A stretch of 64,000 nt of DNA, taken from contig CAZFHY010000015.1 of NCBI GenBank assembly GCA_964519305.1, forward strand, positions 43,155-107,154, written 5' to 3'. Below are positions 4,568 to 62,309 of the stretch, in pieces. Every line of letters starts with the position of its first letter. Positions within the stretch are counted from its first letter, which is position 1. Under the pieces are notes generated by a model. It saw only the letters and a list, made by a program, of their open reading frames with translations, was not told the origin of the DNA and did no database searches. The translations under genes and the position numbers were made by a program. Source of the DNA: Candidatus Undinarchaeota archaeon. Lineage in GTDB: Archaea > SpSt-1190 > JASMDC01.

Positions 4568-6856
4568 ATGGACACAGTGAAAGTGCGGGCGACGGGAATT
4601 TTCCTCTACTCTTTCGGCGCACTCATCTACGAGATAGCATTGATCATGCTCCTACCCCTGCTTACTGGCTTCCTGTTCTTCGACCGGGCAGCTTCGCTCT
4701 TGGCAGTGGCCTGCTTCTTCATCGGCTCCGGTATCGGAGCCGTCATTGGCGCGCGACTGGGCGACCGTTACCTCGGTACTGCCGTTTATGCACAGTTGTT
4801 ATGTGTGCTCCTCCTTCCGCTCTTGGTCCCTTTCTTTAGTTCGAACATTCCTGATATATCATGCCTCTTTTCAAGTGAATGCATGGGTTCATGGGTTACG
4901 CAGGTGAGCGGGGACGCGCGGATATCCAATGCTATATGGGGCGAAGCTCTTCCGAGCACACCGGGGCCGTTCAGTAGGGAATATTATGGTATGGAGTGGG
5001 TGCTGGTCCTGGTCGCTTTCCCGTTCATCAGCGTTGGATATGTGATCTCTCGCGTACTTGGGAGAGCATTAAACGACGGGGGACTCGCTAGCATGTACGC
5101 CTGGGACCTGGCAGGTGCCTGTCTCGGAGCAGCCCTGTGCGGATACCTGATGATCCCTCAGCTCGGAATGGAGCTAACCCTCCTGGTGAGCCTTACCGCG
5201 AGCCTGGCAGGCGCCACCATCCTCGATATTGTCCGACCTCGCCCCCTCCCCGCCCTGATTTGCCTCGTGCTGGCCGCTAACCTCGTTCACATAGGGATCG
5301 AGCCCGGTGTTTCCCAGGGATGCCTCGATGAGGGGGACGAGCTCCTCTTCCGTGGCTGGTCCCCTCTCCAGCGGATCTCCCTCATCCGTTCCCAGAACGC
5401 CCACTGGTTCTGCTTCAATGGTGTCCGCTACAGCCTTGTTGCAAGAGCAGATCCGGGGAACAAAACACTCACCGAGCTCGGTCGGCTCGTATTCCAAGGG
5501 CTGCGTCCGCGTACCGTACTAGTGGTGGGTCCGGGCGGAGGGTATAAGGACGTGTACCAGGCGACGCTCGCCCACGAATCGGACCCTGCCGTGGCCGCTG
5601 CAGTGACCGCGGTCGAGGTGGAGCCGCTCATGGTCTCCACCCTCACAGGTACGTACTCCCACGTCAATGATGGGCTCTATCTCTCCGATGGCGTCAACGT
5701 GATCAATGATGATGGCCGTGCTTTTCTGCAACGACCAGGCGACACCTACGATCTTGTCCTGTTCTCCAAGGTCACGGACCTGGCCACGTTCCGTTCCTAT
5801 GTGCTCTCCGAGAATCGCATGTTCTCCATCGAGGGCATCCGACATACCCTGTCCAGACTCTCTCCTGACGGGACCGTTGTGGTCGTTCTCACCTCGCGGC
5901 ACGAGGCACAGGCACGGCGGCTCATCGCCACGGGTAGGGAACTGGGCGGTGAGCTCTTCCCTGACGGGCGCTGGCAGGACCATGTCAGGCTCCTGCGGCT
6001 CCCGGGTGGGGACACCCTCGGAGATGACCTTGTCATCGCTATATCCCTGAGCCCATCAGCTCTGGGCGTCCTGGACGGAGTCTCCGTGCCCGAGGCGGAG
6101 ATGGTCGCATGGACCGCCGACATACGTCCCCTTTCCATGGACCAGCCATTCGCGTACAACGATCCGGTGGACAACATCCCCTCGGGTCTACAGAAGCTTG
6201 CGGCCGGAGCAGGCGCTATCATCCTGCTATTCTTGGTTACTGCGGGACGTCTGCTGGCCCCGCTTGTCAAGCGACGAGGCCGGGCGTTGAGAGCGCTCCT
6301 TGTGTTCCTCATAATGGGGTGCTGGTCAATGACCTTCCAGGGGCTCTATCTCGCGAAAGCGGGAGAGGTTGTCGGAGTCTCGCTCGTCGCCAAGACCACC
6401 GTCATCACAGCATTCCTTCTCTTCGGCGGTATAGGGAGTCTGCTCGTGCCGCGGATACTTCCGCATCTTCACCTGCTTATCGCCCTTTTGCCTGTCGTGA
6501 ACGTCCTTGTTCAGTCCTTGCTCCCAAATGCTATCACGCCGATCATGAGCCTTCCTTCCCAACTGTTCACCTTGGCACTGTTCATCCTTCCACTTGCCTT
6601 GGTCAACGGGATGGTGTTCCCTGGGACGCTCCTGCTCGCGCGTCGGCTCGAGCCCGAGGTGGATGCTCCATGGGGGTACGCGGCGGATGTTGCCGGTGCC
6701 GTTCTCGGGGTGTTCCTCGCTGTCGGGCTGCCCATAACCTACGGGTACAGCGCCACTCTGCGGTGGTTCCCATTCGTGGCACTGGTCCCCGCAGCGCTCC
6801 TCTACGGACTGGACATCGGGAAGACAGGGAGAGACCGTCTACCTACCACACGGTGA
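4568..6856 (+). CDS. membrane protein with central spermidine-synthase-like class I SAM-dependent domain
   Basis: Multi-TM N- and C-terminal regions (YAWDLAGA, YAADVAGA) around VLVVGPGGG, AVEVEP, DDGRAFL, YDLV. Confidence 0.8.
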   Translation: MDTVKVRATGIFLYSFGALIYEIALIMLLPLLTGFLFFDRAASLLAVACFFIGSGIGAVIGARLGDRYLGTAVYAQLLCVLLLPLLVPFFSSNIPDISCLFSSECMGSWVTQVSGDARISNAIWGEALPSTPGPFSREYYGMEWVLVLVAFPFISVGYVISRVLGRALNDGGLASMYAWDLAGACLGAALCGYLMIPQLGMELTLLVSLTASLAGATILDIVRPRPLPALICLVLAANLVHIGIEPGVSQGCLDEGDELLFRGWSPLQRISLIRSQNAHWFCFNGVRYSLVARADPGNKTLTELGRLVFQGLRPRTVLVVGPGGGYKDVYQATLAHESDPAVAAAVTAVEVEPLMVSTLTGTYSHVNDGLYLSDGVNVINDDGRAFLQRPGDTYDLVLFSKVTDLATFRSYVLSENRMFSIEGIRHTLSRLSPDGTVVVVLTSRHEAQARRLIATGRELGGELFPDGRWQDHVRLLRLPGGDTLGDDLVIAISLSPSALGVLDGVSVPEAEMVAWTADIRPLSMDQPFAYNDPVDNIPSGLQKLAAGAGAIILLFLVTAGRLLAPLVKRRGRALRALLVFLIMGCWSMTFQGLYLAKAGEVVGVSLVAKTTVITAFLLFGGIGSLLVPRILPHLHLLIALLPVVNVLVQSLLPNAITPIMSLPSQLFTLALFILPLALVNGMVFPGTLLLARRLEPEVDAPWGYAADVAGAVLGVFLAVGLPITYGYSATLRWFPFVALVPAALLYGLDIGKTGRDRLPTTR

Positions 6857-9800
6857 TCTCGACGCTGACGAGCTCCTCTTCGTCCTCGTTGACCTCCATG
6901 ATGGCGAACCGCTTGACCAGCTCCACGTCCCGCCCCAGGGCCGGGAGGCGCACATAGTAGTCGAGGATCTCGAGCAGCTGAATGCGGCGGATGATCACCG
7001 GGATCTCCAATGCCTTGACCTTACCCCCGATCGTACATCGGTCATCGTTCTGGTCGCGCACATAGATCTCCAGCTTGGACGAATGGGTGCTCTGGAGACC
7101 CGGCGGATTGAGGATTATGTTGAAGGTGACCTCCTGCAGCACATCGAGCGTGGGCGGTGGCACGGGATAGAGCTGTGCCCAGTGTCGCAGGGAGGCTCCC
7201 GTCTTGATGGTCAGGCTCGTGAGCCCACCGAGGTTCTTGATACGGAAATCGACTGAGCACGGTGTGGCATCGATCGATACACACTCCAGCACCGAGGGAT
7301 GGTACTCGAGCTTCGACTTGCCCTTCATACGCACGAGCACAGTATGGTTGGCGTGCTTCACCCCGGAGACGATCGAGGCGCGCACGGACCATGCCTTACG
7401 CGAGTCCTCACAGCGGTCCGTGTCGGTCCCCTTGTTGTACAGTGGCTTGCATCCCTTGTCCTTGGTGAGATTGAAGTGACCTGTAGCGTTGGTGTTCACC
7501 TTGCAGTTATTGGAGGCCTGCACGACGTTCCCGAACTCGTCGAGCACTGAGATTTTGACCTCGCTGAGCGGGAAATTGCTCTCACCCCAGACCTCCATGG
7601 CAGCCTGCCCGTCAATGACCTCACCGTTCTTATGCGAGGTTATGAGGACCTGTGGCATCTCGCCCACAGTGAACGTGTGAAAGGCGAGGTAGGACTGCCC
7701 ATTGGGCATGACCTTTCCCTCGTTGGGATCCCCTTCAGGGAACACGTCCTCGGCCCAAAGTTCGACGTGGTAGTCCCCGTAGGCGAGGGTCGTTTCGATT
7801 TCGAAGGAGCGTTCTGTCGTCCGCCCTATCTCTACGATGTTGTTCCTGTCGTACACGATAACGGGATCGTCACCCTTGGCCTTGAGACCTATAGAATCCT
7901 TCCCCGGAATGACCATGGACACGTCAGCACCCGCCCGGGTGAAGGTTATCCCCGTCCCGGAACTATTGGACACCGTAAGCTTGGTGTCATCCCCGTTCTT
8001 GACGAACGTAACGATGTCGAGGACCTTCTCGTCGTCATTAACCTCGAGCTTCCAGTCGTTGATGATCGTAGTAGCACCGAGGGAGATGTCCATGAGGATA
8101 TCGTCCCCGCTGCGCGTGAGGATCGCCTTGTTCCCCGCATGAGTGAGCGTCACAACGTTGCCGTTGACCACGATGGAACCCACGCCCACCCAGTCGCCTT
8201 GCTCATGCCAGTACCGCAGGTACTCGCGCAGCCCCCACTGGTCATCGCTGTTGATATCATCCAGACCGCCCCACCCGAAGAGGACCCGTCGCTGGATCCA
8301 TTCGACCCCGCGGAACGTGACCAGATACCGGCGTAGGTCGAGCTCGTCATCACCGGGCACCTCGCCCCACCTGAAAAGCTCAGAGCCCACGTTCAGTGAG
8401 TACCGGAGCGTATCATTGTCTACATTTTCGCACTTCCAGGTGAGGGTGGGATTGAGCTCGGTGGTGACGTTGGGGGCAATGTCATAGGGCATGCCGGGTG
8501 CATCGTTGGCGCACTTGAAGATCGCATCGGTGACCGTAGATACACCACCGTGCGGGTCCTCGCTGAATAGCCGGACGAAGTAGTCCGTGTCGTACGTGAG
8601 GGTGGATGTGATGTCCCATGAGGTACCGGTCGTCTCCTCGTCGTTGACGACGTCGGAGCCGTAGAGAGCTGACCCAACGAACACGTGGTAAGTGAGAGCA
8701 TCACCGTCGTAGTCGAACCCCTTGTCCCACTCTATAGTGGGCGAAGTATCGTGGATTATCTCCGGTCTCAGGTTCGTGGGGGCGTGAGGGTTGGCGTTCA
8801 CGCAACCGTCGATCATTACGGCGTCTATGCTGCTCCATGCCTCTTCGGCCTCATCGCTCACTGCCTTCACATCGATGCGGACCTTGTCGATCTTGGACTC
8901 GGTCCTCGAGATGGTGGGGCTCCAGTACGGACGTTTCTTGGTATTGTCAATGCAGTAATCGGCGTGGTCCTTGTTCGAGAACCGCTCGTACTCGTCATCC
9001 CCCCAGGCCGCGTCCCACACCTTGTTGGCGCTGTCGGCGTACCATTTGGGATCAGTGCTGTCGATGGGATGGACGGTGATGTTCGAGATGCGGCCGGGTT
9101 CGTAATCGAGAACGATCACGATGCGGTCCAGGTACATGGGAGTGGTATAGGAGAGTTCGAGCCAGTCGTGGTCCTTGCGGGTCGAGGGGCGCCACTCCAT
9201 GTCGGCCTTGGGATCACAATTGGACGGATCGGTCGGATTCGAGTCCCACTCGAGAGGTTCGTCCTTGGCTGTAGATGCCGCGTGGTTTGCCTTGTAGGAG
9301 GACGCTGTAGCGCTCGCAGCCCACTGGGTGGTAGTGGCCGAGCACCACGGGACGCCCTCGAACATGCAGACGTGGTCGAAGGTGAGACCTGTCGCGTGGC
9401 GGCCCGAGCCGGTGTTTACACAGTCGCCCGTCTCGACCTGGTACCGCAGCCGCTGTGTGTTCTCGGGTAGGTCCCACGTCTCTTTCACGAAGACCTGGTC
9501 TTTCCCTGACAGGCTCGCCCACTGGCCAGTGTGCTTGCCCAGTGTGCTCCCGCCGCCGTCGTACGCGAACAGGATTATACGGGCATCGTCATTGGCGCAA
9601 TCCTTGTCCGCGGGTTTTTGGGTGATACCATTGACCCACAGTCGGGCGATGGCCTGGTAACCCTCGATGGTCGCAGGAACGACCACGTCCTGATGGAACA
9701 GGTCCTCGTACACCCCTGTGGCCTTCTGCTGGACGCACTTTGAGCCTTCATAGCACACGGAACCGCTCACGGTCTGGACGATAGTGCTGGCGGCCGCCCA

Positions 9801-9920
9801 GTTGTCGGTGCCCTTCTCGAAGTCGGCGTTCTTGACATCGTTGTTGTCGTCGCACTCGTCACCGGCCGACATCGCAAGCAGGAGCACGAGGATGAGGATC
9901 GCGGCGCGGGCCATCCCCAT
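6843..9920 (-). CDS. secreted modular surface protein (carbohydrate-binding-like, discoidin-like and FN3/Ig-like domains)
   Basis: Signal peptide MGMARAAILILVLLLAMSAG; NADFEKGTDNW, WAASATASS, two FN3-like units; start moved from 9986. Confidence 0.75.
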   Translation of the reverse strand: MGMARAAILILVLLLAMSAGDECDDNNDVKNADFEKGTDNWAAASTIVQTVSGSVCYEGSKCVQQKATGVYEDLFHQDVVVPATIEGYQAIARLWVNGITQKPADKDCANDDARIILFAYDGGGSTLGKHTGQWASLSGKDQVFVKETWDLPENTQRLRYQVETGDCVNTGSGRHATGLTFDHVCMFEGVPWCSATTTQWAASATASSYKANHAASTAKDEPLEWDSNPTDPSNCDPKADMEWRPSTRKDHDWLELSYTTPMYLDRIVIVLDYEPGRISNITVHPIDSTDPKWYADSANKVWDAAWGDDEYERFSNKDHADYCIDNTKKRPYWSPTISRTESKIDKVRIDVKAVSDEAEEAWSSIDAVMIDGCVNANPHAPTNLRPEIIHDTSPTIEWDKGFDYDGDALTYHVFVGSALYGSDVVNDEETTGTSWDITSTLTYDTDYFVRLFSEDPHGGVSTVTDAIFKCANDAPGMPYDIAPNVTTELNPTLTWKCENVDNDTLRYSLNVGSELFRWGEVPGDDELDLRRYLVTFRGVEWIQRRVLFGWGGLDDINSDDQWGLREYLRYWHEQGDWVGVGSIVVNGNVVTLTHAGNKAILTRSGDDILMDISLGATTIINDWKLEVNDDEKVLDIVTFVKNGDDTKLTVSNSSGTGITFTRAGADVSMVIPGKDSIGLKAKGDDPVIVYDRNNIVEIGRTTERSFEIETTLAYGDYHVELWAEDVFPEGDPNEGKVMPNGQSYLAFHTFTVGEMPQVLITSHKNGEVIDGQAAMEVWGESNFPLSEVKISVLDEFGNVVQASNNCKVNTNATGHFNLTKDKGCKPLYNKGTDTDRCEDSRKAWSVRASIVSGVKHANHTVLVRMKGKSKLEYHPSVLECVSIDATPCSVDFRIKNLGGLTSLTIKTGASLRHWAQLYPVPPPTLDVLQEVTFNIILNPPGLQSTHSSKLEIYVRDQNDDRCTIGGKVKALEIPVIIRRIQLLEILDYYVRLPALGRDVELVKRFAIMEVNEDEEELVSVEITVW

Positions 9921-9960
9921 GGTGCGTCGCCCGTCCCTCTCTACTCGTCGTCCCACGGGC

Positions 9961-12900
9961 TCACCCCTCACGTCCATCGACGGCAACGGTGCGCCGGCGA
10001 GTCCTACGCGCTAGGAACAGGCCTGCCAGGGCCAGCAGGAGCGCGATGTCCACTGCGCCAACGCCGGGGGCCGTCGCCATGAAAGCACTACCGCTGGCGT
10101 ACACGACCCGCACATAGAACTGCTTCTCGTTGAGCCGCTCTAGCGAGTCCGCGTCCACGACGTAGATCTCGATGAGACCTGCGGCGGTGAGCTTGTAGGG
10201 ATTGATCTCCACCGGGATGGTCTTCGACTCACCTGGGAATAGGGTGAACGCCTCCTCATCGAAGGTGGACCACATCTCCTCCTTGTGGAGCTTGAGCACT
10301 AGGTTCATCGGCTGTGTCCAGTAATTGGTGACGTGAGCGCCGAGCAGGAACGTCTCGCCCACGAAGGTCGACATTGTGTTCTCGACGATATCGGCCTTAC
10401 CGGACATCTTGCGTACCTCGAGCTTGACGAACTTCTCGAAGGAGAACACTGTCTGGTAATGGGCGTCGGTGTAGAGCATGCAGATGCCCGTCTCGGGCGC
10501 AGGGGTACCCTCGTACTCGCACTGGTCCGGAGCCGCCTCCTGGGTGCAGAAGTGGCACATGGGCAGAGTGGCGGTGATGGTCATCACCGGTCGCGGCTCG
10601 TTGGTGACCAGACCTGAGACGTCGCACAGGAACACACCGGAGCCCTGGTGCGTGCAGGTCTTCTCGATGTTCTTGTAGGATAGGGTGGCCTGGCACATGT
10701 CGCACCGCTCCGGCGCGCCACCGTGCTGCTGGAGATAGGAGGACGTTATCACGTGGAACGCGATCTTGACGTCCTTCTTGCCACCGGGCAGCGTCTGCTT
10801 GCGGACCTTGATGTCCTTGACCGAGATGGCGGGGATGGGGCCGTCCCTGGGGTGGCACAGCTCGCGTTCGTAGCCGAGCGTCGATGAGAGCATCTGGCAC
10901 CCGGTCTTGGCACAGGTGTAGTAGCCGCCGTCGATGAGGTCGATCTGACCCTCGGTCTCGTTGAACAGGGCCTTCTCGTGGTAGTAGCAGTTGAGGGTGG
11001 TGACGTTCACGGTGCCCGGGTACGGGCAGTTGCCCTTGAACACGTCGTCGGACCAGTCGAACCCGTCGTAGGCGTCGTCCCCGTCGTCCTTACAGATGTC
11101 CCAGTACTTCTTCTCGTCCTTGTCGAAGGCATAGTAGCATGTATGTGTGGCGTTGTCCAGGCACCAGCCCTCCGTGGCGACATCGATGCTGATGGGCTTT
11201 TCGTCCTTCAGCTCATTGTTGAGGCGGAAGCGCGTGTTGTCGGCGGAGTTCGCCTTATCCAGCTCGAGCCAGGTACATCGCTGACGGTGACTGGCTTCCT
11301 GCGGTTCCACTGGAGCCTGGTGGCAGCCATTGGAGTCGCAGTCAACGGCCTTGGACCAGTCGGCGCCGGTCTCCGGGTCCTTCTCGGACCAGAAGTAGCA
11401 TGTGATCTGGTAGTTCTGCTTTCCGTAGATCTCGTTGTAGCTGTGACCCACGATCTCCGTGTCCCCGGCACCGTCGCAGTCCCTGAATTCCTGACTGTCC
11501 ACACCGAAGAAGTCGTTGTAGTTCGCCGAATCGACACCATTGTAGAGCTTATTGTCCACCTGGCTCGTCTTGTTGACACCCTTCTCGCAGTAGTGGCAGT
11601 AATCACGGCTGTCCGAGTAGTAGTAGAAGTTGTCGTTGTCGCCGTCGTCACCACAGCACGGCGCCTCGGCATTGGCCCCAGCTTCGTCGTGGAGGCCGCC
11701 GTCGCCAAGGTCAGGGTGGTCATTTGGCTCGAACCAAGCGTGCTTGTTGTACTTGTCCACGTCATAGCTGCGGGCACGCCAGGATAGGCAGTGGCAGGCA
11801 TTGGCGCTGACATCGCCGCCCTTGTTACCGCCTGTTTCGGCCGAATCGTAGCAGGTACCGTTGGACACGCAGTCAGTCTCTCTCGGGCAGCAGGAGAGGT
11901 AGTAGTTGTACGTCTTACCGCTGCTGAAGTGGGGTGCGTCCGATGCTTGCCATGAGCGCACACCTATGTTGTCGCCCGGTACGCGGTGGAGCGAGCCGCC
12001 GCCCGTACCTTCCGAGCGGAGGGACCACTCGCTGGCATCATCGCCGCAGCAGGTGTCCTTCGAATCCGAGCCGCCGTTGTTCACGGAGGTGCCGTACTTG
12101 ACGTCCCACCAGACGCCCTGGTCCTTGTTCTGGGAACCGGTGGTCGTGTCAGAGAAGCACCGGGTGTCGCAGTACCGCCAGGCGATGGACGCGTCGTCGC
12201 CGCTGCTCTGGCCGGCCACGTCCCGGTTCTTGTCGTTGAGGTTGTCGAAGTCGACGTAGTACATCTGTGAGTATGCTTTCTCGTTGGAGTTGGGAAGTCC
12301 CGTTGGATCGTTGCTCGTTGGCGTGTCGTCGAAGTACCGGTTAGTATTGCTCTTGCCTGAGTAGCTGGTGCCGCCCATGGCACGGTTCTCGCCGTAGTAC
12401 TGCCACAACATCTTGTACTGGTAGCTACCTTCCAGGGTGCACATCTCGAGCGGGTCGGTCGTGCGGGTGATCGGGTCGTGGTTGGTCGCTGTGGTCGTGA
12501 CGGTAGTCACCGATATCTTATTGTCCGTAGAGCCGTCGTTGAGCGGGTAGGTGAAGGTGTAGCTGCACGTCTCCTTGCCGTACTGGGTTGTGTCGATGCG
12601 CCAGGTCGTGGGTCCATTGCCGTCGTTGACGCAGGTCATGGCCACGTTATTGCGGTATTCGGTCCCGTCGGGTTTCTTGAACCCGTAGGTCCCGTCCATG
12701 TCGTAGCCGCAGTAGTAGTGGCTCTGGCACGTACCGGAGCGGCAGCCCTTGCGGTCACCGGTCTTTTCGTCGTCGCAGGAGTTCGGGCAGTTAGCGACCT
12801 TGCTGGCCGCGACCCCATTTGCGTCATTGTCACAGCAGTAGGTGACATAGTTGGCCACACCAGGCACGCGATAATCGAACTTGACGTAGCCGTAATACCA

Positions 12901-15900
12901 ACCGCTGACGGTGCAGGTCGTGTACTTCTTCGTGCACTGTGCGTAGCACCAGTCACCGCTGGCCTGTGAGTAGAAGTCGCAAGTTAAGGTGTCCATGCCC
13001 TTGTCGTACCAGCAGGTGGACTTCTTGTTCGCGTACGCATTGCTGCACGTGAGGTCGCCGCAGCTCATGACCGAAGGCTCGCCGGCGTCATCGCCCTTGA
13101 GCACCTGTTTGTCCTGGTCCCATAAGTAGACGTAGGGTTTGACCGAGGCGATGTTCACCCACTGGCCGTCGCGGCAGAACTCCTTGTCCCCGTCACTGTC
13201 GATGTCCACGAGGCGCTCACGCACGTAGCACTTGTCATTGAACACACAGTCCGTGGCAGCAGGGCAGCAGGCAAGGTCGTCTGTGGACACATCGCACACG
13301 CTCTTGGAGCCTCCTGTCACGAGCTCCTCGAGCGTCTCGCACTTACGGGCCCACTCGTTGGCATCGTCGCCGCAGCACGTACTGGCGCTCGCAGAGCCGT
13401 CGTTGTTCTGGGCGAGAGCGTACCAGCTGCCGTCATTGTACTTGGTCTTCGTGCCTCCGCCCAGGTTCCACGCCACGCCCGAGTCGCGTGCGCCGGTCGT
13501 GGTGTCATCGAAGCACGTGGTCGTGCAGTAGCGGTCGGGATCGGCGGTCGCGGTGTCGTAGGTGCCGGGATCGCCCGGTGGTGCCTTGTTGACGCTGCCG
13601 ATGTTGTCGAAGTTGACCTTGTAGATGGCCGTCCAAGCGAACTCCTCAACACTCGTCTTCGAGCCCTTACCGTCGCACTCACCGTTGAAGAAGAACTTGG
13701 ACTTCGCTTCGTACTTGCCCTCGCGCTTGCAGTTATCACGCTTGAGGTCCGTCCAGTCCATCTTGCAGCTTTCGGACGCCATCTCCTTGTTATCGGTACC
13801 CTTGCACGTGGACTTGGGACAGTTCAACACCTTCCAACCACCGGTGAGGTCGGTGCCCGAGTCAGTGTGACGAATCTTGTAGTACCCTGGTGCGCACCAG
13901 TAAGCGTTGATAGGCCCGTGCCACTCCGGGGTCACGAGAGGTAGGTCGTCGCAGGTCTTCCCATTGAAGATGAACTCCGACTTCACAGTGTACTGCCCCG
14001 CGGTCTTGCACACGTCATAGTCCCACGTGGGGCAGCTATTGGCAGTGATCTTCATGATCCTGTTCCCGCTCGCATCCTCCTGGCAGAACTCGTTCGCACC
14101 CTTGCCGGGGCAGTCGAGGATCCCGGAGTTGGCCTCCTCACTACCGCCACCGTGGTACATGCGGTGGCGGACCTGGACCGGCGGCTTGGACGCAAAGCAC
14201 TTGAAGATCTTGTTGTTCTTGAACGTCTCTGTCGTGGTGTGGAAGCTCTTCTGGTTACAGTTCTTGCCGTTGTATGTGAAGTCGATCTGTGCCCGGTACC
14301 ATCCGTCCTCGGTGCACGCGTCGGTGAACTGGGGACTCTCGCAGGTTTCCACACGTTGTTCACCGCTGCAGGAGGTAAGGCAGCTCGAGGTCTTGTCGAA
14401 CACGACCTTGTTGCTTGGCGAGTAGATACGGTAACGGACATCGTCCCGACGCAGCTTCCATACACCGTCCACACACCATTCATTGTATCCGTCACTGTCG
14501 GCGTCTAGGTCATAGCCGTTATCGAAGCAGTTCCCTCTTGTGACACAATCGTACCGGGCCTTGCAGCAGGCCTTGTTGTCCCAGCTGCAGGCGTTGGTAG
14601 TAGCGCTCTTCTCATCATCGCTCGTCTCGCACGTGCGGTACCACTCGCTTCCGTCATCACCGCAGCATGAGGACGCAGCGGTCTCTCCGCCGATGTTCCA
14701 GGCGATCCCGCTGTCATGGGCACCGGTGGTCTTGTCGGCGAAACAGGTGAGCGAGCAGAAGATTCCGCTGTGACCGTCCCAGTTCACGTTGTATTTGACC
14801 TCATCGATGTCCTGGGTCGTCGCTTCCAGCGCGGTACCGTCCCAGTTCTTGCCAGAGTAGGCCATCCGGCTCACGAAGTGCACATCGCCCTCGTAATCAC
14901 AGCGTTTGTTCATGCTGCTATGGGTGATGTAGGGGCTGGGATCCCATGTGTACGAGCACGGGACCACGAACGATTTGTGAGTTGGATCGTGGGAGAACTG
15001 GTCCGTGATGTCGGTACAGGACATGTCCTTCCAGTTGAGGAGCGTTGTCCCGCCGACGTAGATCTTGATCTTGGCGGTCGTGTCGAGAGCGCATGAGAAC
15101 ACCTGCATCTTGCTGTCCTCGACCCAGCTCTCAGTGTTCGGTAGGGTATTCCCGTTGACGCATGAATTGCCTTTATGTGAGACCTTGGCCCGGACCGTGT
15201 AGAAACCACCGCGCTGCGAGCAGATAGCCTTCTCTGGGACGGAGTACGTCTCACAGTCCGACATGTAGGTGCCGCCGTCGCACGACGTGTCGCACTTCTT
15301 CTTGGGGCTTGTGTGAGCGACGCTCCCATCGGGATGGTAGACGTAGTAGTACACCTCGTCATCGATGTCACAGAAGTAGAGATTGGTCTTGCTAAGAGCT
15401 GATTTCACGTTCGACGTGGGCATGTTCTGACATTCAGGCCGGTTGTGCAGGATGTCCACCTCGGCCTGGTACCAGCCGGGGATCTTGCACTCGTTGTAGT
15501 CCATCGTACACTCGTGGTACGTCTGCGCTTCATTGCCCGTGCCCGAGGGGCAGCTGGTCGAACAGATGACGTCGTAGGAGGCGATCTGGCCGACGGTGTA
15601 GTGGAAGATGCGGTACTTGGCCTTCTCGGGCAGGTCCTGCCATACGCCGTCGACGCACTTCTCCTCGGCGTTGTCGCCATCGATGTCACCGACGTAGTTA
15701 TCGTTGTAGCAGTTACCATAGGCCACGCAGTCGTACCGGGCGCTGCAGCACGCATTGTTGTCCCCCTTGCAGGCGTTCTTGACAAGCTCGTCGGTCTCGC
15801 ACTTACGGTACCATTCGTTGTTGTCATCACCACAGCAGGTCGTCGCCGCGGTCTCCCCGCCGATGTTCCAGGCGACGCCGAAATCATGAGCACCGGTGGT

Positions 15901-18177
15901 CTTGTCAGGGAAACAGGTCGGTGCTTTGCAGTATATTCCGGAGTGACCGTCCCAGTTGATGTTATAAGGCGTTATATCAAGGTCCTGTGAGGCGTCCTCG
16001 AGGGCGGTCCCGTCCCAGTTCTTGCCTGCATAGTGGACGCGGACCTTGATTTTGTGGTCACCCTCGCGGTTGCACTGGTGCTTGTTCCCGCTGACGGTGA
16101 CAGTATGGTCTGGATTGGGCGTCCATCCTGAATAGGTGCACGCGGTGACCTCGCTGTTATCGGTGGGATCGTGCGAGAACTGGTCCGCTGGACAGTCGAG
16201 GTACACGCCGTTGACGTAGTAATGGCCACCGACCCAGTACCACACCTGCATGGTGGTATCCAGACCACAGGAGAACACCTTCTTTTTACTGTCATCGGTC
16301 CAGCTGGTGGTGTGGTGGAGGGCGTTACCATCGGTCACGCACGAGCTGCCCCGGTGGGTCACCTTGGCACGGACGGTGTAGAACCCGCCGCGCTGGTTAC
16401 AGAGAGCGGCCTCGTCGATCGCGTAGGCCTCGCAGTTGGACATGTACGTGCCGCCGTCGCAGGAGATTGCGCAGGCCTTCTCGGCGCTGGTATGTGCGGT
16501 TGCCCCGTTGGGATGGTAGACGTAGTAGGTAACCTTGTCGCCGATGTCCTCCCACACACCGCTCACGCATTTCTCCTGATCGTTATCGCTGTCGCTGTCA
16601 CCGACCCAGCCGTGGGCAAAGCACTTATTGTGGGCGACGCAGTCGGTCTGGTGGGAGCAGCAGGCACTGTTGTCGCCATCACATGATTTAGGGTTCTTGC
16701 TCTCGTCGGTCTCGCACTTGCGATACCATTCACCACTGTCGTCGCCACAGCAAGACGATGCGGCCTTTTCCCCGCCGATGTTCCAGGCGACACCGAAGTC
16801 GTGGTTGCCGGTGGTCTTGTCGCTGAAGCACGTGGGCGCCTTACAGTACACACCGCTCTCTCCGTCCCAGTTGACGTTGAACTTCTTCTCGGTCACCGTC
16901 TCTTTTAGATGCGATCCTCCGTGGAGGTTGCTGCCGTCCCAGTTCTTGCCCGAGTAGGTGAACTCCACCTTTGTGTAGTAGTCGCCCTCGATGCGGCAGT
17001 AACGTTTCTGGCTGCTCACGGTCACGAACTCACCCGCGGGAGGCGTGTAGCCGGCGTAGGTGCAAGAGTGGAGCCCGGCATCGTTCGTACCGGGAGTGGT
17101 GGAGATGGGTTGTGGGCAGTCCATCGCCTGCGCGTTGACGAAATAGGTGCCCCCCACATAGTACCAGATCTTGGCCGATGCGTGGAGCGAGCATGAGAAC
17201 GATTTGAAGTTAGTATTGTCCACCCAGCTGTCCTTGATGTGGAGCGCACCGCCGGTCACACAGGAGTTGCCCTTGTGGTCCACATGCACGTTCACGGTGT
17301 AGTAGCCGGCCTCGCTGTTGCACAAAGTCGCCTGGTCCACCGAGGTGGAGGGACAGTCGGAGATGTAGGTCCCGCTGGAGCATGAGACAGGGCATATGAT
17401 GTCCTTCTTCCATACATAGTTGCTGCTGGACGTCGAGGGAGAGGTTACACCCGGCTTATAGACGTAGACAGTGGCCGTGTCCTCGATGTCACAGGTGTAG
17501 AGGTCGTGCTTGCTGATGGTGCTCGTACCGCCGCCACTGGTCTTACCGTCACACTCTGTGTGGCCGTGGGTGACGTAGGTCTTGGCCTTGTAGACGCCAT
17601 CGATCTTACAATTTGAAGCCTTCGGATAATCATAGGAGCACTCGCAGGTGTACTGACAGTCCTGGCTCGTGCACGCGCAGGAACAGTCACATTCCTTGTT
17701 GCCTATCGTATCGATGACGGTGTTGCCGCTGTTGATCGAGGAGTGAAAGATCTCCGCTCTGGCGATATCGCCGACAGTGTACAGGTTGAACGAGCTGGAT
17801 CCTGACGTCCCGCCACCGGAGCTCTTGCCGTCGCATTCGGCGGTCCCATAGTTGAAGGTGGCCTTCGCCGTGAGCAGGCCAGGGCTGGTGCGTTTCGTAT
17901 AATCGACTGTGCACTCGCAGTACCGCTGTGCATTGGCCCCTGTACCACCAGGACAGGAGCACGTGCATGCGCCTGTGTTCACAGTGTCGATATGGTTGCC
18001 CTGCCAGTCGTAGATCTTGATCTGGGCGGTGTCCGATACGGCCGGCTGGACCGCTAGGAGCACGAGAACGCCTGCGAGGAGCAGGAGGGCGGCGATGGAG
18101 GCAGCGGCGCGCGTAGAGCGAGAACTAACTCTAAAAAAGCCTCCTCGATCTATGGATGACTGAATAGGATGAACCAA
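9961..18177 (-). CDS. giant cysteine-rich repetitive cell-surface protein with C-terminal membrane anchor
   Basis: 2738-aa ORF; N-terminal signal peptide; repeated CCGDD..EW modules; C-terminal APG + hydrophobic helix + RRTRRR. Confidence 0.85.
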   Translation of the reverse strand: MVHPIQSSIDRGGFFRVSSRSTRAAASIAALLLLAGVLVLLAVQPAVSDTAQIKIYDWQGNHIDTVNTGACTCSCPGGTGANAQRYCECTVDYTKRTSPGLLTAKATFNYGTAECDGKSSGGGTSGSSSFNLYTVGDIARAEIFHSSINSGNTVIDTIGNKECDCSCACTSQDCQYTCECSYDYPKASNCKIDGVYKAKTYVTHGHTECDGKTSGGGTSTISKHDLYTCDIEDTATVYVYKPGVTSPSTSSSNYVWKKDIICPVSCSSGTYISDCPSTSVDQATLCNSEAGYYTVNVHVDHKGNSCVTGGALHIKDSWVDNTNFKSFSCSLHASAKIWYYVGGTYFVNAQAMDCPQPISTTPGTNDAGLHSCTYAGYTPPAGEFVTVSSQKRYCRIEGDYYTKVEFTYSGKNWDGSNLHGGSHLKETVTEKKFNVNWDGESGVYCKAPTCFSDKTTGNHDFGVAWNIGGEKAASSCCGDDSGEWYRKCETDESKNPKSCDGDNSACCSHQTDCVAHNKCFAHGWVGDSDSDNDQEKCVSGVWEDIGDKVTYYVYHPNGATAHTSAEKACAISCDGGTYMSNCEAYAIDEAALCNQRGGFYTVRAKVTHRGSSCVTDGNALHHTTSWTDDSKKKVFSCGLDTTMQVWYWVGGHYYVNGVYLDCPADQFSHDPTDNSEVTACTYSGWTPNPDHTVTVSGNKHQCNREGDHKIKVRVHYAGKNWDGTALEDASQDLDITPYNINWDGHSGIYCKAPTCFPDKTTGAHDFGVAWNIGGETAATTCCGDDNNEWYRKCETDELVKNACKGDNNACCSARYDCVAYGNCYNDNYVGDIDGDNAEEKCVDGVWQDLPEKAKYRIFHYTVGQIASYDVICSTSCPSGTGNEAQTYHECTMDYNECKIPGWYQAEVDILHNRPECQNMPTSNVKSALSKTNLYFCDIDDEVYYYVYHPDGSVAHTSPKKKCDTSCDGGTYMSDCETYSVPEKAICSQRGGFYTVRAKVSHKGNSCVNGNTLPNTESWVEDSKMQVFSCALDTTAKIKIYVGGTTLLNWKDMSCTDITDQFSHDPTHKSFVVPCSYTWDPSPYITHSSMNKRCDYEGDVHFVSRMAYSGKNWDGTALEATTQDIDEVKYNVNWDGHSGIFCSLTCFADKTTGAHDSGIAWNIGGETAASSCCGDDGSEWYRTCETSDDEKSATTNACSWDNKACCKARYDCVTRGNCFDNGYDLDADSDGYNEWCVDGVWKLRRDDVRYRIYSPSNKVVFDKTSSCLTSCSGEQRVETCESPQFTDACTEDGWYRAQIDFTYNGKNCNQKSFHTTTETFKNNKIFKCFASKPPVQVRHRMYHGGGSEEANSGILDCPGKGANEFCQEDASGNRIMKITANSCPTWDYDVCKTAGQYTVKSEFIFNGKTCDDLPLVTPEWHGPINAYWCAPGYYKIRHTDSGTDLTGGWKVLNCPKSTCKGTDNKEMASESCKMDWTDLKRDNCKREGKYEAKSKFFFNGECDGKGSKTSVEEFAWTAIYKVNFDNIGSVNKAPPGDPGTYDTATADPDRYCTTTCFDDTTTGARDSGVAWNLGGGTKTKYNDGSWYALAQNNDGSASASTCCGDDANEWARKCETLEELVTGGSKSVCDVSTDDLACCPAATDCVFNDKCYVRERLVDIDSDGDKEFCRDGQWVNIASVKPYVYLWDQDKQVLKGDDAGEPSVMSCGDLTCSNAYANKKSTCWYDKGMDTLTCDFYSQASGDWCYAQCTKKYTTCTVSGWYYGYVKFDYRVPGVANYVTYCCDNDANGVAASKVANCPNSCDDEKTGDRKGCRSGTCQSHYYCGYDMDGTYGFKKPDGTEYRNNVAMTCVNDGNGPTTWRIDTTQYGKETCSYTFTYPLNDGSTDNKISVTTVTTTATNHDPITRTTDPLEMCTLEGSYQYKMLWQYYGENRAMGGTSYSGKSNTNRYFDDTPTSNDPTGLPNSNEKAYSQMYYVDFDNLNDKNRDVAGQSSGDDASIAWRYCDTRCFSDTTTGSQNKDQGVWWDVKYGTSVNNGGSDSKDTCCGDDASEWSLRSEGTGGGSLHRVPGDNIGVRSWQASDAPHFSSGKTYNYYLSCCPRETDCVSNGTCYDSAETGGNKGGDVSANACHCLSWRARSYDVDKYNKHAWFEPNDHPDLGDGGLHDEAGANAEAPCCGDDGDNDNFYYYSDSRDYCHYCEKGVNKTSQVDNKLYNGVDSANYNDFFGVDSQEFRDCDGAGDTEIVGHSYNEIYGKQNYQITCYFWSEKDPETGADWSKAVDCDSNGCHQAPVEPQEASHRQRCTWLELDKANSADNTRFRLNNELKDEKPISIDVATEGWCLDNATHTCYYAFDKDEKKYWDICKDDGDDAYDGFDWSDDVFKGNCPYPGTVNVTTLNCYYHEKALFNETEGQIDLIDGGYYTCAKTGCQMLSSTLGYERELCHPRDGPIPAISVKDIKVRKQTLPGGKKDVKIAFHVITSSYLQQHGGAPERCDMCQATLSYKNIEKTCTHQGSGVFLCDVSGLVTNEPRPVMTITATLPMCHFCTQEAAPDQCEYEGTPAPETGICMLYTDAHYQTVFSFEKFVKLEVRKMSGKADIVENTMSTFVGETFLLGAHVTNYWTQPMNLVLKLHKEEMWSTFDEEAFTLFPGESKTIPVEINPYKLTAAGLIEIYVVDADSLERLNEKQFYVRVVYASGSAFMATAPGVGAVDIALLLALAGLFLARRTRRRTVAVDGREG
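11850..16880 (-). repeat. five diverged intragenic copies of a Cys-rich module
   Basis: V(N/D)(W/F)D...CF.D.TTG....G(V/I)(A/W)W...CCGDD..EW...CC....DCV at about 16550-16880, 15630-15965, 14450-14795, 13150-13625 and 11850-12260. Confidence 0.85.
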
Positions 18178-60450: not shown

Positions 60451-60993
60451 ATGGTCGAAGGGGATGCGCCCGAGGTGTACGAGGAGTATCCCGTATGGAT
60501 ATGTGCAGTGGCCGAGCTCATGCAGCTGGGGATCTATGCCCTGGGCGCCCTCATCCTCTTAGAGATAGCTCCGTGGGCGGCGGGCGTGTTCCTCGTCTAC
60601 TGCCTGGCGCTGGAGGTCCGGCTCATGCTCTTATCGTGCGTGGACTGCTGCTACTACGGCAAGCGCTGCTTCTCTGGTAAAGGTCTGATCGTTGCGAAGC
60701 TCTTCTCCCGACGCGATCCCGAACAGTTCGCCCGCACCAAGATCACATTCAAGGACATAATCCCGGACTTCGCCGTCGGCCTTGTCCCGCTCGTGACCGG
60801 GCTGGGATTGCTAGTGGTCCGTGGTCCATCATGGTACATGGGAGGCCTTGTCCTGCTCCTGTCGGCCCTCGCCTTCCCGGTAACCGGCTGGGTCCGGAGC
60901 ACGCTGGCCTGCCCCCACTGCAAGCAACGGGAGATAGGGTGCCCGGCGCAGGAGCTGTTCGGCGGCGAGGACGGGGACGGTCAGGCCGACTAG
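60451..60993 (+). CDS. membrane protein with Cys motifs
   Basis: Four hydrophobic helices; CVDCCYYGKRC and CPHCKQREIGCP. Confidence 0.75.
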   Translation: MVEGDAPEVYEEYPVWICAVAELMQLGIYALGALILLEIAPWAAGVFLVYCLALEVRLMLLSCVDCCYYGKRCFSGKGLIVAKLFSRRDPEQFARTKITFKDIIPDFAVGLVPLVTGLGLLVVRGPSWYMGGLVLLLSALAFPVTGWVRSTLACPHCKQREIGCPAQELFGGEDGDGQAD

Positions 60994-62309
60994 AGGAACT
61001 CGCTAAGCTTAGTGGGCCCCTCAAGCTCTTCCTTTGTCACGTGCATCACGCCGTTGGCCTTGTCCACCGAACCCTCGACCGTCGTCACGTGCCACTTCAC
61101 CAGGGAGATCGTCCACCCCTCCTTCTCATCGTCCAGGAGCTCGATACCCGTGATGCATCGGGGGTGCACGCAGCTGCCGCTGTTGAAGTAGCGCTTGTCG
61201 GTGAAGGGGTAGACCGGGCGATGGGTGTGGCCCGCGATGAGAACGCCCTTCTTCTTGCCCATGATCCATTTCTCGAGCGCCTTGTCTACGTCGCTCCGGA
61301 TAGTGAAGTTCTTCGCGGGGCTTGTGGAGTCCCGGATACCGTAGAGCTGGAGGGGCATCCAGAAGTTACGAAGGATCAACTTGCCGAGCCAGTCAGCACC
61401 GCTCGTCTCCGCGTCCACCTGATGGCCATGGACCATATAGATCTTCGCGTCCAGTTCCTTGATGTCGAGGATGAGCCCCTCGATGGGCTTGATGCCCCTG
61501 TCGTATACGAAGATATGGTCCTTGATACGTGCCACGCCCAGTGTCTTGGGATTATTATCTCCCACCTTGATCGTGACCGTATCCCGGTCGAGTTTGATCG
61601 TGACCTCGCGCTTTTTAGATGAGATGACTAGCTCGCTGTCGCTCTTCCATTCGGCGACCGCGCTGCTGTCCACCCAAGAGGCATCGAGATGGTCCCGTAT
61701 ATAGCGCCTGAGACGCCAGGCGTCCTCCCCTTTGAGCTTGTCCCAACAGAAAAGGTATCCCATGAGCGCTCTCTTGCTGTCGTTGCCCTCCTTCACCTCA
61801 TCATGGTTACCCCAGATGACATGGAGACGGTCATCTTTCAGGAACTCACGGATCAGCCAGAACGCATGACTGTGGGCATCGTGAACCTCCTCTGGTGTGT
61901 TCTCCCAGAGCTCATCACCGTCGCCTAGCTCGATGTACGTGTACCCCTTCTTGAGATAATCGCTCAATGCGTGGAAGAAGAGGACCTGGTTATGGGCGAA
62001 GTCGTCGGCCCAGCTGTTGTCCCCCCGGTGCTGGTCGCTGAAGATGATGTACTTTGAACCCGGATCGGCGACGACCTCCTTGACCTTGCCTTTCTTCTGA
62101 ATGAGCAGCTCTTCCAGACGTTTGCCCTTGGTCGCACCCTTCAGCTTGGCCGTCTCGGTAAAGTACACATACAAGATGCCCCAGAGGACGAAATAGATGA
62201 TCACGATTATCATGGCTGTCCTATTGACCGCACTTAGATATCCAAGAGCGAGTACACACCCTGATGCGAAGATGATCAGAAGTACGAGCTTCAACATAGA
62301 TCTGTCCAT
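60990..62309 (-). CDS. membrane-anchored calcineurin-like metallophosphoesterase with internal insertion
   Basis: Two N-terminal TM helices; SDQH, GDGDE, GNHD, VHGH, GHTH, YFNSG. Confidence 0.9.
   Translation of the reverse strand: MDRSMLKLVLLIIFASGCVLALGYLSAVNRTAMIIVIIYFVLWGILYVYFTETAKLKGATKGKRLEELLIQKKGKVKEVVADPGSKYIIFSDQHRGDNSWADDFAHNQVLFFHALSDYLKKGYTYIELGDGDELWENTPEEVHDAHSHAFWLIREFLKDDRLHVIWGNHDEVKEGNDSKRALMGYLFCWDKLKGEDAWRLRRYIRDHLDASWVDSSAVAEWKSDSELVISSKKREVTIKLDRDTVTIKVGDNNPKTLGVARIKDHIFVYDRGIKPIEGLILDIKELDAKIYMVHGHQVDAETSGADWLGKLILRNFWMPLQLYGIRDSTSPAKNFTIRSDVDKALEKWIMGKKKGVLIAGHTHRPVYPFTDKRYFNSGSCVHPRCITGIELLDDEKEGWTISLVKWHVTTVEGSVDKANGVMHVTKEELEGPTKLSEFL

What the first reader, a model, noticed from the sequence alone, without database searches (positions are those of the whole stretch)
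7851..8381. Mobile in-frame protein module nested inside a copy of itself, splitting an FN3 domain
Seen in sequence: the protein at 6843-9920 has two FN3-like units. The first reads ...YHVFVGSALYGSDVVNDEETTGTSWDI...; the second is cut at the equivalent point (YSLNVGS | RNNIVEIGRTTERSFEI) by about 177 aa. That insert is two copies of one ~85-90-aa module: an outer copy (ELFRWGEVPGDDELDLRRYL...VEWIQ // VTFVKNGDDTKLTV...FTRAGADVSMVI...VIVY) interrupted by an inner copy at about 8013-8285 (VLFGWGGLDDINSDDQWGLREYL...DWV...LTRSGDDILMDI...KVLDI). A third copy sits in an unrelated enzyme 53 kb away (next finding). Inference: a domain that spreads by frame-preserving insertion into loops of unrelated genes, even into itself, with no intein splice residues and no transposase in view. 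It could be a selfish coding element or a plug-in localisation or interaction tag.
Basis: partly seen in the sequence, partly recalled or inferred. Interest (0 to 1): 0.85.

Follow-up and report, generated by a model that had tools for sequence, protein, structure and literature searches.

The report
In-frame protein-coding transposon fossils, nested
The insert is two ancient, nested copies of a small archaeal jumping-DNA element that is translated in frame as an ~87-residue protein module, so it can sit inside genes without destroying them.

Summary
The 1047-aa protein (6843-9986, minus strand) has a second FN3-like unit split by 177 aa. That insert reads as one ~87-aa module interrupted by another. 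A third copy sits in a metallophosphoesterase-like gene (61500-61757).

The module has no Pfam or NCBIfam model. It occurs 12 times in 9 ORFs of this genome, including an H+-pyrophosphatase, a primase and a prepilin peptidase. A profile search found it in 1998 protein clusters (E<=0.001) worldwide.

Younger copies from ANME/Methanosarcinales DNA show what it is: a discrete 262-bp element.
- It has 14-bp terminal inverted repeats (GTATTTGTTTAGCT).
- It has 8-bp target-site duplications, so 262+8 = 270 bp = 90 codons.
- Copies 90-96% identical sit in unrelated genes.
- Non-coding MITEs and a 1540-bp IS66-family insertion sequence carry the same repeats.

Self-nesting recurs: 22 cases among 160 proteins, with varied break points.

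In the window's genome the copies are GC-adapted fossils. They have no repeats left, no IS66 transposase was found, and they are under purifying selection (dN/dS 0.17 versus 0.14 for the host proteins).

The weak point is the outer copy's C-terminal half, which is barely significant. Transposition and the fold were not tested.

The parts
6843..9986 (-). Host gene, 1047 aa, with a signal-peptide-like N terminus. It is lineage-restricted: only two orthologous clusters were found.
   Evidence: ORF list. Homologue search with residues 220-535 found only P0154 and P0155. Pfam gives only a weak DUF7402 hit.
8502..8792 (-). FN3-like unit 1 (residues 399-495), uninterrupted.
   Evidence: Pfam fn3 E 0.0049, below the cut-off. 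It serves as the template for the split unit 2.
8382..8501 (-). FN3-like unit 2, N half (residues 496-535), ending ...YSLNVGS.
   Evidence: Aligns to unit 1 with score 65, reached by 0 of 5000 shuffles.
8286..8381 (-). Outer module copy, N part (residues 536-567; profile positions 1-32).
   Evidence: hhalign against the leave-out family profile: probability 97%, E 9e-11. The leave-out HMM gives i-E 3.5e-4 among 51,117 ORFs.
8013..8285 (-). Inner module copy, full length (residues 568-658).
   Evidence: hhalign probability 93%, E 2.8e-7, covering 1-91 on 1-86 of 89. A single-sequence phmmer search finds nothing but itself.
7851..8012 (-). Presumed outer module copy, C part (residues 659-712), ending VIVY.
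   Evidence: Assigned by position and length. Versus the inner copy's C part, 85 of 5000 shuffles reach the score, in register. Not significant against the family profile.
7641..7850 (-). FN3-like unit 2, C half (residues 713-782).
   Evidence: Aligns to unit 1 with score 60, reached by 0 of 5000 shuffles.
61500..61757 (-). Third module copy (residues 185-270 of the 439-aa ORF 60990..62309). That ORF is metallophosphoesterase-like. The copy lies between the GNHD and HGH motifs.
   Evidence: for coordinates. E 1.4e-9 with an HMM built from 47 foreign TIR-defined elements. The Pfam Metallophos hits are only weak. The motif names are recalled, not from a call.

Best explanation
The 177-aa insert is the remains of two successive in-frame insertions of a miniature DNA transposon (MITE-like), the second landing inside the first.

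In its active form the element is 262 bp long. It has 14-bp terminal inverted repeats (GTAT(T/A)TGTTTAGCT) and makes an 8-bp target duplication. Each insertion therefore adds 270 bp, exactly 90 codons. One of its six reading frames is always open and encodes an ~87-residue module: (Y)LFxWDxVPGxDxxxLxxFL...W, then beta-strand-like segments, ending ...NIY. The conserved peptide ends YLFSW and KLNIY are the translated inverted repeats.

The element is most likely moved in trans by an IS66-family transposase that recognises the same ends. Because the insert is translated as a module and keeps the frame, a hit in a surface loop need not kill the gene. Once inside a gene the element cannot be removed except by precise excision, so such copies persist.

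In the window's genome the copies are old. Their repeats and duplications have eroded, their GC content matches the host's, and no IS66 transposase was found. They are kept under purifying selection as passenger domains of their host proteins.

Shown here:
- the family, its boundaries, the repeats, the duplications and the shared ends with the IS;
- nesting, empty paralogous sites and purifying selection.

Inferred:
- mobilisation by that transposase;
- independent folding with adjacent termini;
- that the window's copies arose by the same route.
For: **Discrete unit.** In 24 non-redundant copies from ANME/Methanosarcinales loci, nucleotide conservation starts at TAT TTG TTT AGC TGG, ends at AAG CTA AAC ATA TAC, and falls to about zero in the flanks.

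**Inverted repeats.** The ends match 12 of 13 as an inverted repeat, with a 9/9 core. Two copies (L027, L033) carry a compensatory TTC...CTG pair. With the flanking G (40 of 49 copies) and the final C (42 of 49), the repeat is 14 bp.

**Target duplications.**
- Among 49 non-redundant copies from 63 metagenome loci, 19 of 49 have 7 or more matches out of 9 in the compared register, versus 0.55% of cross-paired controls.
- Eight positions match at 57-82% and the ninth at 22%.
- In a set not selected on the repeats, 36% of 25 copies have 6 or more matches out of 8, versus 2.8% of controls.

**Recent copying.** 110 pairs are at least 80% identical over the element with unrelated flanks. Examples are 96% for L022/L106 and 93% for L087/L071, whose flanks are 27% and 22% identical.

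**Same ends on known mobile DNA.**
- The repeat pattern occurs 50+56 times in G043 (control 3+2) and 19+25 times in G041 (control 4+3).
- Non-coding MITEs of 96-238 bp carry it with perfect 8-bp duplications.
- A 1540-bp element carries it around a 472-aa ORF. That ORF matches DDE_Tnp_IS66 at E 8.6e-34 and zf-IS66 at E 2e-7.

**Always translated.**
- 47 of 49 repeat-defined copies have the module frame open, and 42 of 49 are embedded with at least 20 open codons on both sides.
- Four of the other five frames carry stops in all 40 standard-length copies. The fifth, reverse frame -1, is stop-free in 15 of 40.
- A DNA search of five genomes gave 28 matches. 26 are the in-frame copies already found by the protein profile and 2 are fragments of 29-38 nt.

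**Nesting.** 22 cases among 160 proteins, with break points at profile positions 25-61 and outer/inner identity from 0.25 to 0.9. One DNA example is L107.

**Link to the window.**
- An HMM from 47 repeat-defined foreign elements finds 8 of the 9 host ORFs of this genome, with E from 1e-39 to 4e-7.
- The H+-PPase paralogue (79% identical) lacks exactly the module.
- That insert maps between residues 702 and 704 of the solved plant enzyme.

**Selection.** dN/dS is 0.17 for the modules (703 codons) and 0.14 for the rest of their hosts (3238 codons) between the two species of the genus. It is 0.39-0.40 among 14 independent younger pairs.
Against: The window's own copies show no inverted repeats and no target duplications. 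Their origin by transposition is therefore inferred from protein homology alone.

The FN3 protein is the weakest member.
- The profile from repeat-defined elements gives it only E 0.13.
- The inner copy is found only by profile-profile comparison.
- The outer C half is not significant against the family.

No IS66-like ORF was found in this genome (blastp, none at E<=1e-3).

The one complete IS found (L140) shows no clear 8-bp duplication of its own.

Transposition was not observed. No empty site for a young copy was recovered.

The near-total absence of intergenic or out-of-frame copies is explained only by an argument about survival, not by data. Non-coding MITEs with the same ends abound in the same genomes.

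Confidence: 0.8

Rival explanations
1. The copies in this genome are kept because the module has been exapted. It would serve as a plug-in interaction, oligomerisation or regulatory domain that benefits the host proteins. This is compatible with an origin as a mobile element, but it makes a different claim about what the module does now.
For: Purifying selection is as strong as on the host proteins: dN/dS 0.17 versus 0.14. All seven orthologue pairs compared between G000 and G001 keep the insert. Many hosts elsewhere are conflict-system proteins, where adaptor domains are common: RAMPs in 5, KAP NTPase, SLATT, pYEATS and Baseplate_J in 4, out of 78 scanned. In-frame copies far outnumber any others.
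Against: Hosts span both sides of the membrane. Some have signal-peptide-like N termini (the FN3 protein, C20), and others are cytoplasmic enzymes or loops (primase, H+-PPase loop). A single partner is therefore unlikely. Purifying selection is also expected if a misfolded insert simply harms the host protein. No partner, motif or ligand site was identified. A paralogous PPase does without the module.
Confidence: 0.2
2. This is an ordinary lineage-specific promiscuous domain spread by duplication and illegitimate recombination (domain shuffling). The inverted repeats would then be a by-product of the conserved peptide ends.
For: The window's copies have no repeats or duplications. Copy numbers are low, 4-14 per genome. 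Copies within this genome are only 23-34% identical.
Against: The same 14-bp ends are found on non-coding MITEs and on an IS66-family IS in the same genomes. The 8-bp duplications abut the element. Codon choice at the two ends differs in the way complementarity demands, TTG for Leu at the 5' end and CTA at the 3' end. Copies 90-96% identical lie in unrelated genes with sharp boundaries.
Confidence: 0.05
3. The insert is removed after transcription or translation, as an intein-like protein splice or an archaeal bulge-helix-bulge intron, so the mature protein lacks it.
For: The inverted ends could pair in RNA and bring the two junctions together. The insert lies in conserved enzymes.
Against: There is no conserved nucleophile at either junction. 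The first residue is Y, F, V, A or L, and the residue after the final Y varies among D, T, A and V. The module is under purifying selection at the protein level and has no stops in 47 of 49 copies. Neither would be needed for an intron.
Confidence: 0.02

Closest known systems
Rickettsia palindromic elements (RPE)
   Same: Small non-autonomous repeats that are found inserted in frame in many unrelated protein-coding genes and are translated as part of the host protein. The MITE review PMC10969869 (passages read) calls this the extreme case of in-frame MITE insertion.
   Different: RPEs are about 150 bp, bacterial (Rickettsia) and unrelated in sequence. Here the element is 262 bp plus an 8-bp duplication and is archaeal. 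It encodes an ~87-aa module conserved from low-GC ANME genomes to a 60%-GC marine archaeon. It is under purifying selection, nests in itself repeatedly and has an identified candidate partner IS.
MITEs derived from IS66-family insertion sequences
   Same: Terminal inverted repeats shared with an IS whose ORF matches DDE_Tnp_IS66 and zf-IS66. 8-bp target duplications, which is the length I recall for IS66 from ISfinder and did not get from a call. Small size and no transposase of its own.
   Different: Ordinary MITEs, including those with the same ends in G043, are non-coding. The 2024 census abstract (PMC11602168, passages read) describes MITEs as mainly intergenic. This one is found essentially only in frame inside genes. 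The single-ORF layout of the IS (no tnpA/tnpB seen within 1540 bp) resembles the ISBst12 group, a name I recall.
Inteins and mini-inteins
   Same: Selfish elements that live in frame inside conserved genes and limit the harm they do to the host protein.
   Different: There are no splice residues and no HINT fold signature in Pfam. The module is 87 aa. It appears to stay in the mature protein rather than being excised.
ShiLan insertion domain in a phage methylase (PMC11855218; only the listing's abstract was seen)
   Same: An in-frame insertion without stop codons in a host gene, behaving like a mobile element and being neither an intron nor an intein.
   Different: By its abstract it carries its own hidden HNH endonuclease and homes to one gene. 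The element here has no enzyme, has transposon ends and enters many genes.

Membership tests
MITE (non-autonomous DNA transposon) | Terminal inverted repeats at the exact ends | tested here: met
   Family consensus 12/13, or 13/14 with the G...C ends. NOT met in the window's own copies, where the ends are eroded.
MITE (non-autonomous DNA transposon) | Target-site duplication of fixed length abutting the element | tested here: met
   8 bp. 19 of 49 copies have 7 or more of 9 matches in the compared register, versus 0.55% of controls. 36% versus 2.8% in an independently collected set. Not detectable in the window.
MITE (non-autonomous DNA transposon) | Multiple near-identical copies in unrelated contexts | tested here: met
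   110 pairs at least 80% identical with unrelated flanks, the best at 96%.
MITE (non-autonomous DNA transposon) | Autonomous partner with the same ends | tested here: met
   L140, 1540 bp, with ends GTATTTGTATGGCT / AGCTATACAAATAC and an IS66-family ORF, in a genome that also holds 14 module copies.
MITE (non-autonomous DNA transposon) | Observed mobilisation by that transposase | not testable with these tools
   Needs a transposition assay.
IS66 family (the presumed partner) | DDE_Tnp_IS66 catalytic domain and IS66 zinc finger | tested here: met
   PF03050 E 8.6e-34 and PF13005 E 2e-7.
IS66 family (the presumed partner) | 8-bp duplication flanking the IS copy itself | tested here: not met
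   The flanks of L140 read GAAAGATC and GATTTTTT. Only one complete copy was examined.
Intein | Cys/Ser at the first residue, His-Asn at the end, and Cys/Ser/Thr as the next residue | tested here: not met
   First residue is Y, F, V, A or L. The end is I/V-Y followed by a variable residue.
Any curated protein family for the module | Match above threshold in Pfam, NCBIfam or PDB sequences | tested here: not met
   Pfam, NCBIfam, PDB best E 0.071.
Fibronectin type III (host units) | Pfam fn3 above the gathering score | tested here: inconclusive
   Unit 1 gives E 0.0049 and 17.5 bits against a cut-off of 25. No structure was available.

The most novel reading that the evidence does not exclude
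A family of archaeal transposons has evolved a third way, beside introns and inteins, of living inside genes. Its DNA is at once a transposase substrate and an open reading frame for a small module, and its length plus target duplication is a multiple of three. It can therefore colonise the roughly 90% of a compact genome that is coding. It gets trapped there, nests in itself, and seeds new domains in enzymes as conserved as the H+-pyrophosphatase and primase. The inverted repeats themselves are read as the module's two conserved end motifs, which may pair and hold the termini together.
Probability: 0.6. Interest if true: 0.85.

Novelty: new variant of a known kind. Interest (0 to 1): 0.8.

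Why it matters
**For protein evolution.** It would be a clear, datable mechanism by which a ready-made module is dropped into loops of unrelated proteins. The hosts include essential, highly conserved enzymes, and the inserts are kept for long periods.

**For mobile-element biology.** It extends the Rickettsia RPE phenomenon to archaea. It also adds features not reported for RPEs in the passages I read:
- a conserved encoded module under purifying selection;
- repeated self-nesting;
- a candidate IS66-family partner;
- near-exclusive residence in coding sequence.

**For annotation.** 1998 protein clusters matched the module at E<=0.001, and no Pfam or NCBIfam model covers it in the proteins scanned. 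It inflates and splits domain hits, for example two H_PPase stretches. A model for it would clean up annotations in ANME, Methanosarcinales and related metagenomes.

**As a tool.** The module marks permissive insertion sites in many proteins.

Tried and rejected
Adjacency of the termini and the fold of the split FN3 unit could not be tested.
- The ESM Atlas did not hold the two proteins tried.
- No RNA holder was listed for the window stretch.

**Searches that found nothing useful**
- Viral contigs: 335 pattern matches, none confirmed.
- Insert-free homologues of the FN3 protein: only 2 orthologous clusters exist.
- The metallophosphoesterase was not found with this query in 59 other archaeal genomes.
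- Repeats at the window's junctions: only the homologous LF-W-G codons, with no inverted repeat.
- I chased one 'IS end' type in G043. It turned out to be the 3' end of a group II intron sitting inside a MITE, not a transposase. L135 held an ATP-grasp gene, not an IS.

**Readings rejected**
- Intein, because there are no splice residues.
- Out-of-phase tandem array. That would give [C part][full][N part], not the observed [N part][full][C part].
- Two coincident partial duplications, which are unlikely to recur 22 times with matched break points.

**Literature**
- Searches found no description of this module or of an in-frame archaeal MITE.
- I read passages only of PMC10969869, PMC11602168 and PMC13343696.
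The lists of 18,091 archaeal MITEs in PMC11602168 could contain this element, and I could not check.
Full report
**1. What is in the window**

The ORF 6843..9986 (minus strand, 1047 aa) contains two FN3-like units. Unit 1 (residues 399-495) gives a sub-threshold Pfam fn3 hit, E 0.0049.

Unit 2 is split after ...YSLNVGS. Its N half and its C half each align to the matching part of unit 1, with scores of 65 and 60. Neither score was reached by any of 5000 shuffles. Between the halves lie 177 residues, 536-712, window 8381..7851.

- outer N part, 536-567;
- inner copy, 568-658;
- outer C part, 659-712.

A further copy lies at 61500..61757 in a 439-aa ORF. That ORF carries the phosphoesterase motifs as I recall them and only weak Pfam Metallophos hits.

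**2. Is the similarity more than chance?**

I compared these pieces with a family profile that excludes this protein and its orthologues.
- The outer N part matches profile positions 1-32: hhalign probability 97%, E 9e-11.
- The inner copy matches over its full length: probability 93%, E 2.8e-7.
- The outer C part does not match.

Further tests on the outer C part are weak.
- Its only sequence support is a local alignment to the inner copy's C part in the right register, reached by 85 of 5000 shuffles.
- Against an HMM of the family's C part, 185 of 2000 shuffles did as well.

A profile built only from foreign elements gives the whole protein just E 0.13. A leave-out profile from this genome's other copies gives E 2e-5.

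So this locus is the most diverged member. The nesting is firm for the N parts and the inner copy. For the outer C half it rests on length, the ...VIVY end and analogy with other nested cases.

**3. A family in this genome**

An HMM search of all 51,117 stop-to-stop ORFs of the genome converged on 12 domains in 9 ORFs. The genome has 3.63 Mb in 42 contigs, and the window is C15:43155-107154.

| Host | Evidence |
|---|---|
| H+-pyrophosphatase | Pfam H_PPase E 4.7e-247, in two stretches |
| Primase small-subunit-like protein | Profile interrupted |
| A24 prepilin peptidase | Module lies between the peptidase domain and Arc_PepC |
| Large predicted secreted or membrane proteins | Several hosts |

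One host, L004, again shows an N part followed by two further copies. No Pfam, NCBIfam or PDB sequence match covers the module.

**4. Empty sites**

The module-bearing PPase has a tandem paralogue that is 79% identical and lacks exactly the module. The PPase of the sister species G001 lacks it too. On the solved plant enzyme the insert falls between residues 702 and 704.

Two paralogues of the C20 protein align on both sides and skip the module.

For the FN3 protein itself no insert-free homologue exists in the databases searched. The evidence there is unit 1 of the same protein.

**5. Distribution**

Among 41 archaeal genomes (own, same genus, same class, same domain), the module was found only in G000 and G001, with 12 matches each.

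Against 1.84 billion representative proteins the profile found 1998 proteins at E<=0.001. Of these, 1255 are at E<=1e-10 and 86 at E<=1e-30, and many carry several copies.

Of 78 host proteins scanned, the Pfam families are very diverse:
- TPR (6), RAMPs (5), pentapeptide (4), Baseplate_J (4);
- Tail_P2_I (3), YEATS (2), HD (2);
- KAP NTPase, SLATT, FIST, a Cas3-like domain and others.

A scan of one genome per species returned 30 loci. Nearly all are from ANME-1/Methanophagales, ANME-2, Methanosarcinales, Methanoperedens and 'Halobacteria'-labelled MAGs. One Nanoarchaeia MAG and one WOR-3 bacterial MAG also appear.

Five such genomes hold 4-14 copies each.

A protein 92% identical to this genome's peptidase is labelled 'Candidatus Undinarchaeales archaeon' by NCBI.

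**6. Nesting is a family trait**

Among the 160 proteins in hand, 22 cases show the pattern [N part][full copy][C part].
- Break points lie at profile positions 25 to 61.
- Outer/inner identity ranges from 0.25 to about 0.9, so the events have many ages.
- The inserted unit always starts at (Y)LFxW and ends at ...NIY.
- Often about three extra, similar residues flank it, for example NSK|NSK, VGK|VEK and EKK|ENN.

Two KAP NTPases carry two nested composites each. In one of them, P0007, both composites have the same break point. That suggests a nested pair was copied as a unit.

An out-of-phase tandem array would give the reverse order and cannot explain this pattern.

**7. The DNA vehicle**

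*Boundaries.* In 24 non-redundant low-GC copies, conservation begins exactly at TAT TTG TTT AGC TGG and stops at AAG CTA AAC ATA TAC. The flanks carry no information.

*Inverted repeat.* The two ends are an inverted repeat, 12 of 13 with a 9/9 core. Leu is TTG at the 5' end and CTA at the 3' end, as complementarity requires.

*More copies.* A pattern built from these ends retrieved 63 metagenome loci. Among the 49 non-redundant copies:
- the base before TAT is G in 40 and the last base is C in 42, so the repeat is 14 bp and the element 262 bp;
- the flanks carry an 8-bp direct duplication. 19 of 49 have 7 or more of 9 matches in the compared register, against 0.55% of cross-paired controls. 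Eight positions match at 57-82% and the ninth at 22%.

*Check in an independent set.* In the set collected by peptide patterns, and not by the repeats, 36% of 25 copies have 6 or more of 8 matches, against 2.8% of controls.

*Examples.* AGGGAAATG|...|AGGGAAATG in L073, and 8 of 9 matches in L087, L074, L022, L084, L102 and L086.

*Frame.* 262+8 = 270 bp = 90 codons, so every insertion preserves the frame.

*Recent copies.* 110 pairs are at least 80% identical over the element with unrelated flanks, and the best reach 96%.

**8. The same ends on ordinary mobile DNA**

The 14-bp end occurs far more often than the module: 50+56 times in G043 (control 3+2) and 19+25 times in G041 (control 4+3).

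It bounds non-coding MITEs of 96-238 bp with perfect 8-bp duplications, such as ACTTTTTC, TCCTGCTC, AAAATCTT and AAATATAT.

In G041 it bounds a 1540-bp element whose 472-aa ORF is an IS66-family transposase. The ORF matches DDE_Tnp_IS66 at E 8.6e-34 and zf-IS66 at E 2e-7. That genome also holds 14 module copies.

This makes trans-mobilisation by such a transposase the most economical model. It was not tested. The single complete IS copy shows no clear duplication of its own.

**9. Always in frame**

Of the 49 repeat-defined copies, 47 keep the module frame open. 42 are embedded with at least 20 open codons on both sides, and most of the rest sit at an ORF's start or end.

Four of the other five frames carry stops in all 40 standard-length copies. 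Reverse frame -1 is stop-free in 15 of 40.

A DNA-level search of five genomes with a 262-bp copy gave 28 matches.
- 26 are the in-frame copies already found by the protein profile.
- 2 are fragments of 29-38 nt.

So no full-length intergenic or out-of-frame copy was seen, although non-coding MITEs with the same ends are common there.

My explanation is inferred. Out-of-frame hits destroy genes and are lost. Intergenic copies decay or are deleted. In-frame copies can only be removed by precise excision, so they accumulate. Targeting or positive selection is not excluded.

**10. Selection**

Between G000 and G001, seven orthologous hosts all keep their inserts. dN/dS is 0.17 for the modules (703 codons, dS 0.54) and 0.14 for the rest (3238 codons, dS 0.53).

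Among 14 independent pairs of younger copies in unrelated genes, dN/dS is 0.39-0.40.

The peptide is therefore translated and constrained. This is expected both for a passenger that must not misfold and for an exapted domain, so the data do not separate the two.

**11. State in the window's genome**

The copies are 23-34% identical to each other. They are GC-rich like their hosts and have lost the repeats. No IS66-like ORF was found in the genome. They are fossils that predate the split of the two species (dS about 0.5).

**12. Comparison with what is known**

The closest known phenomenon is the Rickettsia palindromic element, the textbook case of selfish DNA translated in frame within many genes (PMC10969869, passages read).

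That review lists archaeal MITEs from Sulfolobus, Halobacterium, Haloquadratum walsbyi, a Desulfurococcus species and 'several other archaeal genomes'. It does not mention IS66. A 2024 census describes MITEs as mainly intergenic (PMC11602168, passages read).

Nine full-text searches found no description of this module.

I therefore rate it a new variant of a known kind. It is an archaeal, IS66-associated, protein-coding MITE whose product is a conserved module and which nests in itself.

**13. Caveats**

- Transposition, the fold and the position of the termini are untested.
- The metagenome set was selected on intact ends, so it cannot be used to measure conservation of the ends.
- Many loci come from related samples and are not fully independent, although I removed copies with similar flanks.
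- The outer C half in the window remains weakly supported.

Noticed in passing
window 9961-18177 (-): A 2738-aa Cys-rich repeat protein lies directly upstream of the host gene and overlaps its start by 26 nt. It has repeated CxC / 'WNIGGE..CCGDD' blocks. Neighbours on this strand look like a cluster of large surface proteins.
   Followed up: no
G000:C9:113401-118667 (L007 and the next ORF): Two tandem H+-pyrophosphatase paralogues, 79% identical. Only the first carries the module. The sister species G001 yielded one PPase, without the module.
   Followed up: partly
L004 = G000:C1:332077-333825 (-): A second nest in this genome: an N part (residues 319-366), then two further copies (367-447, 448-533), then a very weak C-part-like tail (539-579, i-E 21).
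   Followed up: partly
L116, L121-L123, L138 (G043 contig ends): Sequences that look like the 3' end of a group II intron, plus a reverse-transcriptase fragment, sit just inside the right end of MITEs carrying the same inverted repeat. Introns may be homing into these MITEs. The intron features were recognised from memory and not tested with Rfam.
   Followed up: partly
G000 as a whole: The genome is 3.6 Mb at 99.8% completeness, while all 15 same-class genomes sampled are 0.6-1.2 Mb. A protein 92% identical to one of its proteins is labelled Candidatus Undinarchaeales by NCBI.
   Followed up: no
P0007 and P0011/P0161 (KAP NTPases): Each carries two nested composites. In P0007 both have the same break point and are 78% identical, as if a nested pair had been copied as one unit by its outer ends.
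   Followed up: partly
Element copies in L053-L115: Reverse frame -1 of the element is free of stops in 15 of 40 copies. Antisense in-frame insertions might sometimes be tolerated, but none was seen.
   Followed up: no
L015, L016 (G001) and window 58275-60521: G001 has module-bearing beta-propeller-repeat proteins (637 and 1418 aa). Their best G000 relatives, including the window's 748-aa propeller protein, are only 32-38% identical and carry no module.
   Followed up: no
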